Assembly: GCA_963736005.1 (NCBI GenBank)
Contig: CAVTNB010000003.1
Location: 256,001-320,000 of the forward strand
Source: an uncultured Pseudomonadota bacterium
GTDB taxonomy: Bacteria; Vulcanimicrobiota; Vulcanimicrobiia; Eremiobacterales; Eremiobacteraceae
Length of the DNA: 64,000 nucleotides
Direction of reading: 5' to 3'
How positions within the stretch are numbered: position 1 is the stretch's first letter; each line of letters opens with the position of its first letter. Below the pieces are notes generated by a model. That model made no database searches, had not been told where the DNA came from, and worked only from the letters and a program-made list of their open reading frames with translations. Below are positions 61,695 through 64,000 of this stretch, piece by piece. Made by a program: the position numbers and the translations under genes.

Positions 61695-61884
61695 CCCATC
61701 GTTACCTCGGCGCCACGCCGAAACCCCAAACCTAGCGATTTCCGCACAGGACCGCTACAGACTCAAATTCGAACAAATACGACATTAAGTCCAGTCTCCG
61801 ATTGGGCGACCATGAGTTTCACGCCAGTGAAGCCTTGACTTACCCGACACTTGTTTGGTCGCGGTGTCGAACGAAAGGAAATTT

Positions 61885-62346
61885 ATGAAACGAGCAATCT
61901 TAGGGGTAGCCCTTATGGTCCTTGCCACGTTCAGTTTGGTGAGCATTTCGTCGGCGACAATGACGTCGAAGGCGAACGCATTGGCGCCCACGATCGTCAT
62001 GCCTGATGATCTCAAATGGGCGCCGGTCAACGGCCTCACCGGGGTTCAGATGGCTGTGGTTTGGGGTGATCCGAATAAGCCTGGACCGTACATAATACGC
62101 CTGAAACTCGTTGACGGCGCAATGGCACCACCACATTGGCATCCCGATGATGAGCGCGCAACGGTTCTCAGCGGAACGTTCATGGTCGGCGTGGGTGATA
62201 CGGTCGACCCCTCAAAGATGAAGGCACTCGGTGCTGGAGCATTTGTCTTCATTCCAAAAGGCGTGCACCACTACGCGCAGGCCAAGGGCGCGACCATCGT
62301 TCAGGTCAGCGGGATGGGTCCGTTCGTGATGAATATGGTAAAGTAA
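61885..62346 (+). CDS. Secreted cupin (DUF4437-like)
   Basis: GDPNKPGPY, PPHWHPDDERATVLSG and GVHHYA. Confidence 0.85.
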   Translation: MKRAILGVALMVLATFSLVSISSATMTSKANALAPTIVMPDDLKWAPVNGLTGVQMAVVWGDPNKPGPYIIRLKLVDGAMAPPHWHPDDERATVLSGTFMVGVGDTVDPSKMKALGAGAFVFIPKGVHHYAQAKGATIVQVSGMGPFVMNMVK

Positions 62347-62401: not shown

Positions 62402-62959
62402 TCAACCCCGCTCGTTCAATATGGTCAACAGCTCGTCGGTTGTGGCCGTCTCACCGATCCGAGGAAAAATCTTTTCGATGCTGTGTCGGTGCGCGTCGGC
62501 GTCAAGGTCAGTCATCGCATCCACTACTAGCACGACGTTATAGCCGCGATCGTACGCGTTACGCGCCGTCGACTCCACGCCGCGGCTCGTCGAGATTCCA
62601 GTGAAGACGACCTGGGTTACCTTGATTCGACGCAAGAATTGCTCCAAAGAGGTCCCATAGAACGCACCCACTTGCAGCTTGGTCACCGTGTGATCGCTCG
62701 GCTGCCGATCGAGCTCGGGAATCAGCTCCGTCCAGTCAGCCGGTGGTTTGAAATTTGATTTGACGTCGGTGCGCCCCGGAGCAAGAGCGGTGACGTTGAC
62801 GAGAACGACCGGCAAGCGATGCTCGCGGAAGGCCCGCGCTAGGCGCGCAACCCGATCGATGATTTCAGACGCGGGGTGAATGGTCGGCATTGCGACGACG
62901 CCTTTTTGCATGTCGATCACAACTAAGGCGGCAACACTGTCGATTTGCGTGAGTGGCAT
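62402..62959 (-). CDS. Isochorismatase family cysteine hydrolase-like protein
   Basis: ALVVIDMQ, K..GAFYGT.L and GISTSRGVESTAR.AYDRGY. Confidence 0.9.
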   Translation of the reverse strand: MPLTQIDSVAALVVIDMQKGVVAMPTIHPASEIIDRVARLARAFREHRLPVVLVNVTALAPGRTDVKSNFKPPADWTELIPELDRQPSDHTVTKLQVGAFYGTSLEQFLRRIKVTQVVFTGISTSRGVESTARNAYDRGYNVVLVVDAMTDLDADAHRHSIEKIFPRIGETATTDELLTILNERG

Positions 62960-63137
62960 TTGCCCTTCCCTTCCGATGAGAAGCTTGGAAATCGTTGCGG
63001 CTCCGGCGTGAACCGATGCCCGACGCTAATTGTCGCTGCACGAGACGTTTACCTGAAACGAGTGAGGCTCGGGTTTTGACTAGGAGAGGCGGTTTCGAGC
63101 GCTTAAAATTGCAAAGCACCAAGACCAGGAGGGCATT

Positions 63138-63722
63138 ATGGGTAGCAGTTCTGAAGCGGGAACACTCCGCTGGCTCACATCGGTTGACGACGCGGTTACG
63201 CAAGCAAAGTCGACCGGAAAACTTGTGCTCTTGGACTTCTTCAGCCCGACCTGAGGAGGTTGCAAAGCGCTGGATACCGTGACGTATCCTCAATCCTTCG
63301 TCCAAGCCATCATCAACGACTATTGCGTCCCTGTTCAGGTGAACAATACAATCGATGGGAACGAACCTGTCATCGAGCGGTTCCGTCATATCTGGACGCC
63401 CGATCTGCGCGTTCTTGATGAGAGCGCTCTCGAGCTGTACCACTGGAACGGCTATCTGCCGCCTGCGGAGTTCGCGGCGCGCCTGCTTGCCGGATTGGGG
63501 TTTGCCCGGCTACGGCTGCGCCAGTTCGAGGCAGCCGAAGGCCTGTACGCGGACGCTCTACGCCGTTTCCCGACGACGTTCGCAGCACCGGAAGCGCAGT
63601 ACTTCAGCGCGGTGACGGGCTATCGCAAGACGGGCGAAGCCAACGCCCTGCTGCATGGCTGGCACGAGCTCGAAAAGACCTACCCGCAGTCAGAATGGAC
63701 TGCAAAACAGAACTTCGATTGA
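63138..63722 (+). CDS. Probable selenoprotein: thioredoxin-fold (UGGC) plus C-terminal TPR-like helices, 194 aa
   Basis: RBS AGGAGG plus ATG 63138. Reads ...KLVLLDFFSPT-TGA-GGCKALDTVTYP in frame with ORF 63279-63722; TGA at 63252-63254 is codon 39. Confidence 0.82.
63255..63299 (+). promoter_or_regulatory. Candidate bacterial SECIS element
   Basis: Upper stem GGATAC / GTATCC with loop CGTGAC starting 23 nt after the UGA; lower stem GGAGG-TTG / CAA-T-CCTTC. Confidence 0.65.
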
Positions 63723-63788: not shown

Positions 63789-64000
63789 ATGTTAAGGCGC
63801 TATGCTTTGGTGGTAGTTGTTGCAAGTGCGCTGGCGGTCGCTGCCGCGCACGCCGACGAACCCGAAACTAAGCAAACCCCAAACTCACAAATCATTGTGT
63901 TAAACTGCTACCCGCACGAGCACGGCGCTGGGGTATCGCATCCATGGATCGATCCGTATGGAAACTGGCACTATACCGGTGCATTCCCAAATGATGAGGG
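63789..64000 (+). CDS. Hypothetical secreted protein (3' partial)
   Basis: MLRRYALVVVVASALAVAAAHA signal peptide; frame open to the window end. Confidence 0.6.
   Translation, partial: MLRRYALVVVVASALAVAAAHADEPETKQTPNSQIIVLNCYPHEHGAGVSHPWIDPYGNWHYTGAFPNDE

What the first reader, a model, noticed from the sequence alone, without database searches (positions are those of the whole stretch)
63138..63722. Hidden selenoprotein: thioredoxin-fold/TPR protein with UGGC motif and SECIS-like hairpin
Seen: a strong RBS (AGGAGG) and ATG at 63138 open MGSSSEAGTLRWLTSVDDAVTQAKSTGKLVLLDFFSPT. A TGA follows at 63252, then the same frame continues GGCKALDTVTYP into the ORF the track starts at 63279. The TGA falls exactly at the first Cys position of a thioredoxin CxxC (LLDF..xx-C-GG-C). 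Downstream is a hairpin, GGATAC-CGTGAC-GTATCC, whose loop starts 23 nt after the UGA and has G-U at loop positions 2-3. A lower stem pairs 63255-63262 with 63291-63299. Established: this geometry fits the bacterial SECIS model, and UxxC thioredoxin-like selenoproteins are known. Inference: a 194-aa Sec redox protein that standard gene callers truncate. It implies a selenocysteine system in this organism.
Basis: partly seen in the sequence, partly recalled or inferred. Interest (0 to 1): 0.82.

Follow-up and report, generated by a model that had tools for sequence, protein, structure and literature searches.

The report
Overlooked selenocysteine thioredoxin-TPR protein gene
The apparent stop codon inside this gene almost certainly encodes selenocysteine in the active site of a small redox protein, and databases record the same gene in many soil bacteria only as a truncated protein that lacks its active site.

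Summary
ATG 63138 to TGA 63720-63722 is one 194-codon gene with an in-frame TGA at 63252-63254. That TGA is kept in 126 of 126 phylum genomes that hold the gene. It lies in the same column in 39 of 39 extracted loci and in 20 of 20 loci of a second, Brocadia-like clade. It aligns with the first Cys of CxxC in 49 of 57 full-length homologues. The hairpin 63272-63289 (loop CGUGAC, starting 23 nt after UGA) pairs in 318 of 318 cells, with A-U/G-C covariation and suppressed synonymous variation. The genome holds tRNA-Sec, selA, selB and a Sec-type selD. The AF2 model (pLDDT 95.6) puts residue 39 at the nucleophile position of a DsbD-gamma-like thioredoxin fold joined to a YbgF-like helical domain. 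All 120 listed database homologues are truncated. No curated NCBIfam model reaches its cut-off. This scan had not met the protein on other DNA. Verdict: a genuine selenoprotein and a new member of a known kind. Its biochemical role is inferred only.

The parts
63127..63132 (+). Shine-Dalgarno AGGAGG, 5 nt before the start codon
   Evidence: Read directly from the sequence.
63138..63722 (+). Full selenoprotein coding sequence: 194 codons plus the TGA terminator, with the internal TGA read as Sec
   Evidence: Translation. Orthologues align over residues about 4-194 across the TGA. Full-length Cys homologues span residues 8-193.
63252..63254 (+). Sec codon UGA (residue 39), first position of the U-G-G-C redox motif
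   Evidence: TGA in 39 of 39 orthologous loci at this column, while the terminator varies (TGA 12, TAA 12, TAG 15). Cys in 49 of 57 full-length homologues. Lies at the N-cap of helix 40-49 in the AF2 model.
63261..63263 (+). Resolving Cys42 codon (TGC) of the UxxC motif
   Evidence: Cys in 53 of 57 full-length homologues. Invariant in alignment A3.
63272..63289 (+). SECIS apical hairpin: stem GGAUAC/GUAUCC and loop CGUGAC (63278-63283)
   Evidence: 318 of 318 cells paired. Pair 3 is AU 36, GC 16, GU 1. Pair 5 is AU 41, GU 12. Synonymous entropy is suppressed in codons 42 and 44-50. It meets the loop, stem, G-position and spacing criteria of the bSECIS model quoted in PMC13188914.
63279..63281 (+). 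GTG inside the SECIS loop that gene callers take as the start of the truncated 147-aa ORF
   Evidence: ORF list. All 120 listed database homologues are 123-161 aa and cover 63-77% of the query.
63255..63299 (+). Possible extended SECIS with a lower stem (63255-63262 pairing with 63291-63299)
   Evidence: Forms here (-12.5 kcal/mol for UGA to +49). Only 74% of cells pair in relatives, and the structure with it added is no better than shuffles. Status: weak.
63171..63461 (+). Thioredoxin-fold domain (residues about 12-108), DsbD-gamma/Thioredoxin_2/_7 type, with cis-Pro88
   Evidence: Pfam PF13098 at 38.9 bits (cut-off 27) and PF13899 at 33 bits (cut-off 27). PDB profile hits 2kuc, 2lst and DsbD-gamma. 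Foldseek TM 0.70-0.75 on the target. Pro88 in 56 of 57 homologues.
63462..63704 (+). C-terminal helical TPR-like domain (residues about 109-189), YbgF/CpoB type
   Evidence: Family profile against PDB: YbgF 2xev 4.4e-13, CpoB 6g5s 6.2e-10, BamD. Helices 109-126, 130-143, 150-165 and 168-181 in the AF2 model. Pfam TPR hits lie below their cut-offs.

Best explanation
This is one gene for a 194-residue selenoprotein with no signal peptide, so probably cytoplasmic. UGA 63252-63254 is decoded as selenocysteine. SelB carrying Sec-tRNA(Sec) is inferred to bind the mRNA hairpin GGAUAC-CGUGAC-GUAUCC, whose loop begins 23 nt downstream, and to deliver Sec to the ribosome instead of release factor 2. The product has a DsbD-gamma-like thioredoxin fold. 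Its redox centre is U39-G-G-C42 at the N-terminus of the first long helix, opposite cis-Pro88, so it should cycle between a selenolate/thiol form and a selenenylsulfide form as a thiol-disulfide oxidoreductase. A C-terminal YbgF/CpoB-like TPR-type helical domain is packed against the Trx domain and probably selects a protein substrate or partner. Shown here: the conserved UGA, the Sec/Cys pairing, the conserved and covarying hairpin, the presence of the Sec machinery, and the predicted fold. Inferred: actual Sec insertion, SelB binding, redox activity and the role of the helical domain.
For: TGA conservation: 126 of 126 phylum genomes with a match carry a TGA in the row that covers residue 39. 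The 4 of 130 rows without a TGA are C-terminal fragments. TGA is in the same column in 39 of 39 loci at 46-79% protein identity, while the true terminator varies (TGA 12, TAA 12, TAG 15). Two copies at 31% identity keep it, as do 20 of 20 loci of a Brocadia-like clade. Sec/Cys pairing: position 39 is Cys in 49 of 57 full-length homologues, position 42 is Cys in 53 of 57, and Pro88 is kept in 56 of 57. Upstream coding constraint: conserved residues before the TGA vary freely at synonymous sites (D33 GAC 26, GAT 13; P37 three codons; V30 four codons). SECIS: 318 of 318 cells paired, with 16 both-sided changes against 5.1 +/- 1.6 in shuffles. Mean normalised synonymous entropy is 0.136 in 7 hairpin-region codons against 0.734 in 52 other conserved codons (Mann-Whitney p = 1.4e-5). 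Those codons are fixed on GAT and TAT, the minority codons at the gene's other conserved Asp and Tyr columns. The loop, stem, G-position and spacing criteria are met. This genome's own Sec-type selD has a hairpin with loop CGUG starting 20 nt after its UGA. Machinery: tRNA-Sec at 71.6 bits with anticodon TCA, selA 520 bits, selB 302.6 bits, selD 367 bits with one in-frame TGA. selA was found in 122 of the 126 gene-positive genomes (cross-checked by eye). Fold: AF2 pLDDT 95.6 and pTM 0.91, with residue 39 at the helix N-cap, and DsbD-gamma as the top structural match. Independent contigs, including one metatranscriptome contig covering 63171-63357, bridge the TGA with no listed change there.
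Against: There is no experimental evidence of selenium incorporation. On this single sequence the hairpin is energetically modest: -6.0 kcal/mol alone, which misses the model's -7.5 kcal/mol criterion unless the weakly conserved lower stem is counted (-12.5), and the 66-nt fold has z = -0.10. Only one of the six stem pairs shows both-sided covariation and four never vary. Part of the nucleotide conservation could reflect the conserved peptide (A/T)(L/M)(D/G)(T/A)VTYP. selA is found in 340 of 401 phylum genomes, so its co-occurrence with the gene (122 of 126 against 218 of 275) discriminates only weakly, and related genomes are not independent. Neighbouring genes are not conserved, so context gives no support for any specific function. 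The RNA-library contig comes from a relative and could derive from contaminating DNA.
Confidence: 0.93

Rival explanations
1. Pseudogene: a nonsense mutation (TGC or TGT to TGA) inactivated a Cys-type thioredoxin-TPR gene in this lineage.
For: A TGA one step from a Cys codon sits at the active site. One relative (G007) has a frameshifted copy. Gene callers everywhere report a truncated product.
Against: The TGA is kept in 126 of 126 genomes and across proteins that have diverged to 31-46% identity. The frame stays open on both sides, conserved residues upstream vary freely at synonymous sites, and the terminator varies while codon 39 never does. A dead gene would not keep this pattern.
Confidence: 0.01
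2. Two separate genes: a 38-residue leader peptide that ends at TGA, and a 147-residue TPR protein that starts at GTG 63279, with the hairpin acting as a regulatory or attenuator element.
For: This is how all 120 listed database entries are called. GTG 63279 is a possible start codon.
Against: Cys-type homologues are single polypeptides of 186-221 aa that align across the junction. The split would cut the thioredoxin fold after its first strand and remove the CxxC motif. No Shine-Dalgarno-like AGGAGG is seen before GTG 63279 (read directly). That GTG lies in the loop of a stable hairpin.
Confidence: 0.02
3. UGA is read through or reassigned to a standard amino acid (Trp, Cys or Gly) rather than Sec, by a suppressor tRNA or an alternative genetic code.
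For: One database homologue (P0144) has W at the aligned position. UGA can be misread as Cys or Trp when selenium is scarce (recalled, not tested here).
Against: TGA terminates this gene itself and 12 of the 39 orthologues. selA and selB read without internal stops under table 11. A complete Sec machinery and a SECIS-type hairpin at the canonical distance are present. The codon sits at a redox Cys position, which is the typical Sec site.
Confidence: 0.03
4. Sequencing or assembly error at 63252-63254 in this metagenome-assembled genome.
For: The genome is an 84%-complete draft in 6 contigs.
Against: The same codon occurs in 126 independently assembled genomes. Contigs of four public runs cover the site with no listed difference.
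Confidence: 0.005

Closest known systems
'Thiol:disulfide interchange protein' selenoprotein family (PF13098, UxxC), listed in the 2026 review PMC13188914 with its ref. 12 (Kryukov and Gladyshev 2004)
   Same: The same Pfam domain scores above its gathering threshold (PF13098, 38.9 bits). It has the same UxxC motif with Sec in the first position and a thioredoxin fold.
   Different: Orthology could not be tested. The review's text never mentions TPR, tetratricopeptide, Eremio-, Planctomycet- or Brocadia. PF13098 is a broad domain model, so sharing it does not make the two one family.
DsbD gamma domain (C-terminal thioredoxin domain of the disulfide reductase DsbD; PDB 1uc7, 1vrs, 2fwe, 4ip1)
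   Same: It is the best structural and profile match to residues about 8-116 (E about 2e-16; TM 0.70-0.75 on the target). The CxxC lies at the same helix N-cap.
   Different: This protein has no membrane domain and no alpha domain. NF001419 scores 30.1 bits against a cut-off of 330. It has no signal peptide (maximum 15-residue hydropathy 0.49), carries Sec instead of Cys, and has an added TPR-like domain.
YbbN/CnoX 'chaperedoxin' (thioredoxin domain plus TPR domain; PDB 3qou, 3qdn)
   Same: It is the only solved architecture that combines an N-terminal Trx fold with a C-terminal TPR-type domain. By analogy, the helical domain may bind client proteins.
   Different: The domain arrangement differs (TM 0.37-0.38 on the query, rmsd 10-12 A). 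The helical domain here is much shorter (about 80 residues) and matches YbgF/CpoB better. That E. coli CnoX lacks a CxxC is recalled, not tested here.
NCBIfam thioredoxin-like selenoprotein models: VPGUxxT types 1 and 2 (NF041382, NF041383), Trx7/PDZ (NF041199), TsoB (NF045694)
   Same: These are distantly related Trx_7-type folds. The NPG-U motif in many orthologues resembles VPG-U.
   Different: Scores fall far below the cut-offs: 29.6 against 275, 27.2 against 350, 15.6 against 300 and 23.4 against 805. The motif here is UxxC, not UxxT or CxxU, and the C-terminal domains differ.

Membership tests
Bacterial selenoprotein gene (Sec-UGA with bSECIS) | In-frame UGA that aligns with Cys in homologues | tested here: met
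   Cys in 49 of 57 full-length homologues at the aligned column. The rest are S 5, W 1, N 1, E 1.
Bacterial selenoprotein gene (Sec-UGA with bSECIS) | UGA conserved among orthologues, with coding sequence conserved on both sides | tested here: met
   126 of 126 genomes. 39 of 39 loci in the same column. 2 of 2 distant copies. 20 of 20 Brocadia-like loci. Synonymous variation is normal upstream of the TGA.
Bacterial selenoprotein gene (Sec-UGA with bSECIS) | bSECIS geometry: 3-9 nt apical loop, 4-16 bp upper stem, G in loop position 1 or 2, 16-37 nt between UGA and the loop (criteria quoted from the Fig. 2 legend of PMC13188914) | tested here: met
   6-nt loop CGUGAC, 6-bp stem, G at loop position 2 followed by U, 23 nt spacing. 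The structure is kept in 318 of 318 cells.
Bacterial selenoprotein gene (Sec-UGA with bSECIS) | bSECIS minimum free energy of -7.5 kcal/mol or lower | tested here: inconclusive
   The hairpin alone is -6.0 kcal/mol. UGA to +49, including the lower stem, is -12.5 kcal/mol. The lower stem is weakly conserved.
Bacterial selenoprotein gene (Sec-UGA with bSECIS) | Sec machinery in the same genome (tRNA-Sec, SelA, SelB, SelD) | tested here: met
   All four score above their curated cut-offs. ARAGORN calls tRNA-SeC with anticodon TCA.
Bacterial selenoprotein gene (Sec-UGA with bSECIS) | Selenium demonstrably incorporated into the protein | not testable with these tools
   Needs 75Se labelling or mass spectrometry.
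Thioredoxin-fold CxxC oxidoreductase (Pfam Thioredoxin_2 PF13098 / Thioredoxin_7 PF13899) | Domain score above the gathering threshold, (C/U)xxC at a helix N-cap, and a cis-Pro loop | tested here: met
   PF13098 38.9 bits and PF13899 33 bits, both with cut-off 27. U39 precedes helix 40-49 in the AF2 model. Pro88 in 56 of 57 homologues.
'Thiol:disulfide interchange protein' selenoprotein (PF13098, UxxC; Kryukov and Gladyshev 2004) | Orthology to the catalogued representative | not testable with these tools
   The representative sequence is not retrievable and the paper is not held. Only the Pfam domain and the motif are shown to be shared.
VPGUxxT thioredoxin-like selenoproteins (NF041382, NF041383), Trx7/PDZ (NF041199), TsoB (NF045694) | Whole-protein score above the curated cut-off | tested here: not met
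   27.2 against 350, 29.6 against 275, 15.6 against 300, 23.4 against 805. Cys-type homologues also stay below the cut-offs.
DsbD (NF001419) | Full-length match including the membrane domain | tested here: not met
   30.1 bits against a cut-off of 330. Only the gamma-domain region, profile positions 461-569, matches.
TPR repeat proteins (Pfam TPR_2, TPR_12, TPR_14) | Repeat score above the gathering threshold | tested here: not met
   15.1-16.4 bits against cut-offs of 23.5-30.1 on the single sequence. The family profile does match the TPR domains of YbgF and CpoB, hence 'TPR-like'.

The most novel reading that the evidence does not exclude
This may be a selenoprotein family that has not been catalogued: a thioredoxin-TPR 'seleno-chaperedoxin'. 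It occurs in about a third of the sampled genomes of this phylum, where the source names on database hits say Candidatus Eremiobacteraeota. An exported version occurs in a Brocadia-like (anammox) clade. The same SECIS loop, CGUGAC, sits at the same 23-nt spacing in both lineages. That would mean either that the gene moved between phyla together with its SECIS, or that this loop is a preferred SelB recognition sequence shared by distant bacteria. Because the peptide L-D-T-V-T-Y-P is encoded by the hairpin itself, the protein sequence there would be held fixed by the RNA.
Probability: 0.45. Interest if true: 0.62.

Novelty: new member of a known kind. Interest (0 to 1): 0.5.

Why it matters
It corrects a systematic annotation error. 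All 120 listed database relatives are recorded without their first roughly 47 residues, so they lack the redox centre and carry names such as 'hypothetical', 'TPR repeat protein' or 'TolA-binding protein'. It shows that selenocysteine use is widespread in a little-studied soil and peat phylum: selA is found in 340 of 401 sampled genomes, and no paper in the held library pairs the phylum name with selenocysteine or selenoprotein. It also offers a clean natural example of one stretch doing two jobs. The same 18 nucleotides encode a conserved peptide and form the SECIS hairpin, with a non-synonymous change on one arm (Asp to Gly) matched by a synonymous change on the other arm (TAT to TAC). Finally, a Trx-TPR selenoprotein with Cys-type homologues is a tractable system for asking what Sec gives a thiol-disulfide oxidoreductase.

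Tried and rejected
1. Genome-wide scan for 'stop codon, then 17-27 nt, then a hairpin of at least 5 bp with an NGU loop' in open frames. It gave 128 TGA, 35 TAA and 51 TAG sites, which is not discriminating. The CGUG-loop candidates other than selD and this gene translate to Arg-rich nonsense frames, so no further selenoproteins were found this way.
2. First count of the lower stem was one column out of register. It was redone correctly.
3. The search for related loci on genome contigs with alignment A2 failed because the alignment was too diverse. With A3 the tool chose a peptide pattern that contains the Cys I had put in place of U, so TGA forms could not match. Its single hit, L072, is an unrelated membrane-anchored TlpA/ResA-like thioredoxin that shares only SPTCGGC. 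As a result there is no DNA of a true Cys-type homologue, and the control 'Cys forms lack the hairpin' could not be run.
4. Gene neighbourhood: the flanks of 12 loci differ (cupin and isochorismatase here; Na/H exchanger, thiolase/ECH, aminotransferase, TPR protein, peptidase S9 and others elsewhere). There is no conserved partner and no functional clue. ORF picking was crude, because antisense ORFs are common at 58.6% GC.
5. The protein-atlas search does not take a read-through protein. I did not pursue it.
6. The Kryukov and Gladyshev 2004 paper is not held.
7. Sequencing runs: no run holds half or more of the sampled words, and all runs laid are relatives' contigs. Depth, habitat and expression level cannot be read from them. 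The parts of the stretch without cover in X1, X14 and X20 are not evidence of anything.
8. Literature search for selenoprotein + thioredoxin + tetratricopeptide + SECIS returned 5 papers, all unrelated eukaryotic work by their titles.
Full report
OBSERVATION. AGGAGG lies at 63127-63132, five bases before ATG 63138. Thirty-eight codons follow (MGSSSEAGTLRWLTSVDDAVTQAKSTGKLVLLDFFSPT), then TGA at 63252-63254. The same frame continues GGCKALDTVTYPQ... to a terminal TGA at 63720-63722, giving 194 codons. A conventional ORF list shows two pieces, 63138-63254 (38 aa) and GTG 63279-63722 (147 aa). The hairpin GGATAC / CGTGAC / GTATCC occupies 63272-63289, and its loop starts 23 nt after the TGA. The GTG that gene callers use as a start codon is the GUG of that loop. 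On this sequence alone the RNA fold is unremarkable: z = -0.10 for 66 nt and -6.0 kcal/mol for the hairpin alone. The case therefore rests on comparative evidence.

THE TGA IS CONSERVED AND PAIRS WITH CYS. I searched the read-through protein against 61 related genomes, the window's own included. That found 20 full-length orthologues at 46-79% identity (G000's own copy also matched), each with exactly one in-frame TGA, plus one frameshifted copy in G007. In an even sample of 401 genomes of the phylum, 126 have the gene at E <= 1e-15. All 126 rows that cover residue 39 contain a TGA, and the only 4 of 130 rows without one are C-terminal fragments. I extracted 39 loci, and the TGA lies in the same column in 39 of 39, in the motif (S/N/K/G)P(T/G)-U-G(G/A)-C. 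The real terminator of the same genes drifts freely (TGA 12, TAA 12, TAG 15). Two loci come from unpublished genomes (L023 from G013, L067 from G365). Without them the count is 37 of 37. Two divergent in-phylum copies at about 31% identity also keep the TGA, as NPG-U-IGC. An exhaustive HMMER search of 1.84 billion representatives gave 2226 hits at E <= 1e-3. Among the 57 full-length homologues I aligned (186-221 aa, 25-40% identity), the aligned residue is Cys in 49, Ser in 5, and W, N and E in one each. Cys42 is kept in 53 of 57 and Pro88 in 56 of 57. This Sec/Cys pairing is the standard signature of a real selenoprotein family.

THE UPSTREAM PIECE IS CODING. Conserved residues before the TGA vary freely at synonymous sites: D33 is GAC 26 and GAT 13, P37 uses three codons and V30 uses four. 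This is as expected for translated sequence under purifying selection.

THE HAIRPIN IS UNDER SELECTION AS RNA. In the 39-sequence codon alignment, codons 42 and 44-50 have a mean normalised synonymous entropy of 0.136, against 0.734 for the 52 other conserved degenerate codons (Mann-Whitney p = 1.4e-5). GTG is used in 39 of 39, ACG in 39 of 39, GAT in 36 of 36 and TAT in 36 of 39. At the gene's other conserved Asp and Tyr columns GAC and TAC are more common. Pro51, just past the stem, returns to an entropy of 1.77. The three sequences with TAC are exactly the three in which Asp46 GAT has become Gly GGT. A non-synonymous change on the 5' arm is thus matched by a synonymous change on the 3' arm, which turns an A-U pair into G-C. 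This is seen in two taxonomic families (L026 in f1; L052 and L053 in f2). I pooled 61 Sec-form loci (53 distinct): 39 from the phylum, 2 distant copies and 20 Brocadia-like. All six pairs form in 318 of 318 cells. Pair 3 is AU 36, GC 16, GU 1, and pair 5 is AU 41, GU 12. Sixteen cells have a both-sided change, against 5.1 +/- 1.6 in shuffles (0 of 500 reach it), and slid registers pair in only 20-54% of cells. Limits: four of the six pairs never vary, only one pair covaries on both sides, and related sequences are not independent.

COMPARISON WITH THE bSECIS MODEL. The 2026 review PMC13188914 (passages read, not the whole text) gives the criteria in its Fig. 2 legend. They are a 3-9 nt apical loop, a 4-16 bp upper stem, a G in the first two loop positions (usually followed by G or U), 16-37 nt between UGA and the loop, and MFE <= -7.5 kcal/mol. 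This element has a 6-nt loop, a 6-bp stem, G-U at loop positions 2 and 3, and 23 nt of spacing. The energy criterion is met only if the lower stem is counted (-12.5 against -6.0 kcal/mol). In relatives it pairs in 74% of cells, and the structure with it added scores no better than shuffles (57 of 500 reach the paired percentage). In the Brocadia-like loci RNAfold draws a different lower helix. I treat the lower stem as unresolved. As an internal control, this genome's own selD has an in-frame TGA followed by the hairpin CGCGAG-CGUG-CUCGCG, whose loop starts 20 nt downstream. That loop begins with the same four bases.

Sec MACHINERY. The assembly has 2.84 Mb in 6 contigs and is 84% complete. 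It holds tRNA-Sec (71.6 bits against a gathering score of 47; ARAGORN calls SeC with anticodon TCA), selA (520 bits), selB (302.6 bits) and selD (367 bits, with one in-frame TGA). Across the phylum sample, selA is present in 340 of 401 genomes. By eye, 122 of the 126 gene-positive genomes have it. The four exceptions (G019, G265, G365, G391) are 80-96% complete and three of them are in 370-690 contigs. Among gene-negative genomes, 218 of 275 have selA. This is consistent with the Sec reading but only weakly discriminating.

WHAT THE PROTEIN IS. Pfam gives Thioredoxin_2 (38.9 bits) and Thioredoxin_7 (33 bits), both above their cut-off of 27. TPR models fall below their cut-offs. A profile of 58 family members matches thioredoxin-like PDB chains: 2kuc at 2.3e-20, 2lst, and DsbD-gamma at about 2e-16 over residues 8-116. 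Over residues 113-185 it matches the TPR domains of YbgF (2xev, 4.4e-13), CpoB (6g5s) and BamD. AlphaFold2 on that alignment gives one compact two-domain model (pLDDT 95.6, pTM 0.91), with residue 39 immediately before helix 40-49, the classical position of the nucleophilic Cys. Foldseek ranks DsbD-gamma first (TM 0.70-0.75 on the target). The only solved whole-architecture analogues are the Trx-TPR proteins YbbN/CnoX (3qou, 3qdn), which have a different domain arrangement (rmsd 10-12 A). The N-terminus has no hydrophobic leader (maximum 15-residue hydropathy 0.49), so the protein is probably cytoplasmic. Flanking genes differ from locus to locus, so context says nothing about substrate. My mechanistic reading is a selenolate/thiol to selenenylsulfide oxidoreductase whose helical domain selects a protein partner. 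That reading is inference from fold and motif.

BEYOND THE PHYLUM. Source names on database hits place this lineage in Candidatus Eremiobacteraeota. Truncated forms of 147-150 aa also occur in a 90%-identity cluster whose NCBI members are named Candidatus Brocadia sp. 'thioredoxin family protein'. I used that cluster's representative to fetch metagenome DNA. Twenty loci at 63-83% identity to it all show, six codons upstream of the called start, a TGA in the motif (PT/PA/IA)-U-T(G/S)-C. All twenty also have a hairpin with the identical loop CGUGAC at the same spacing. Its stem is GGGUAC/GUACCC, GGGUGC/GUACCC, GGGUAC/GUAUCC or GGAUAC/GUAUCC. These forms have a signal-peptide-like leader (hydropathy 2.3-2.9). 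That these contigs belong to Brocadia relatives is inferred from the cluster names only.

INDEPENDENT DATA. No public run holds half or more of the sampled words. Relatives' contigs from four runs cover 63252-63254. No difference is listed there or in the hairpin, although the tool left 9 further rows unprinted. One metatranscriptome contig (189 nt, 17 differences) spans 63171-63357 and so bridges the TGA. This is a weak hint of transcription as one unit, because DNA can be present in RNA libraries.

KNOWN OR NEW. All 120 listed near-length database homologues are 123-161 aa and cover 63-77% of the query. Neither the Sec form nor eight Cys forms reach the cut-off of any NCBIfam model, including the thioredoxin-like selenoprotein models. 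In the passages I read, the review's table of prokaryotic selenoproteins lists many Trx-fold UxxC families. [quoted passage not shown] This protein shares that Pfam domain and motif, but I could not test orthology. The words TPR, tetratricopeptide, Eremio-, Planctomycet- and Brocadia do not occur in the review. No paper in the held library pairs Eremiobacter* with selenocysteine or selenoprotein. I did not see the supplementary tables of the primary selenoproteome surveys, and the family could be listed there. This scan had not met the protein on other DNA.

VERDICT. This is a genuine selenoprotein gene (confidence 0.93) that standard annotation truncates. It is a new member of a well-known kind, the Trx-fold UxxC selenoproteins. 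Its notable features are its spread (about a third of the sampled genomes of the phylum, plus a second clade) and its strongly conserved SECIS that also encodes protein. Its specific function remains inferred.

Noticed in passing
G000:C1:2000550-2001494 (- strand; TGA at C1:2001464): This genome's selD is itself a selenoprotein (motif CAG-U-ASK). Its SECIS hairpin is CGCGAG-CGUG-CUCGCG, with the loop starting 20 nt after the UGA. That loop begins with the same four bases as the hairpin of the finding.
   Followed up: partly
phylum sample of 401 genomes: selA is found in 340 of 401 genomes of the phylum (334 above the curated cut-off), so selenocysteine use looks nearly universal there. No paper in the held library pairs Eremiobacter* with selenocysteine or selenoprotein.
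   Followed up: partly
L073-L092 (metagenome contigs): A Brocadia-like clade has the same Sec protein with a signal-peptide-like leader, so it is probably exported. Its SECIS loop CGUGAC is identical, at the same spacing. This could reflect transfer between phyla or convergence on one SelB-binding loop.
   Followed up: partly
L071 = G007:C2:300778-302336: The G007 copy of the gene is frameshifted near codon 80. The N-terminal piece, with its TGA, and the C-terminal piece lie in different frames. This is either an assembly error or a real pseudogene in that one genome.
   Followed up: partly
P0144: One homologue from a read-assembly source has W at the Sec position (NPG-W-GGC). It may be a TGA translated as Trp by a pipeline using another code, or a true TGG.
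   Followed up: no
cluster of P0129: One 90%-identity cluster holds both 190-aa forms and 148-aa forms of the protein. This could mean a Sec/Cys switch between very close relatives, or simply different gene calls.
   Followed up: no
window 63243-63296 (run X2): Summed contig depth rises from about 25-28 to 194-238 only over the TGA-plus-hairpin stretch. Many different organisms in that sample align there and nowhere else, which fits the extreme conservation of this stretch.
   Followed up: no
window 61855-62346 (+), 62402-62959 (-), 63789-64000 (+): The neighbours are a cupin-domain protein with an N-terminal hydrophobic segment, an isochorismatase-family hydrolase on the opposite strand, and an ORF with a signal-peptide-like start that has no Pfam match and continues past the window's end. 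None of them is conserved next to the orthologues.
   Followed up: partly
If correct, it would be a third selenoprotein gene here, beside selD and this one.
   Followed up: no
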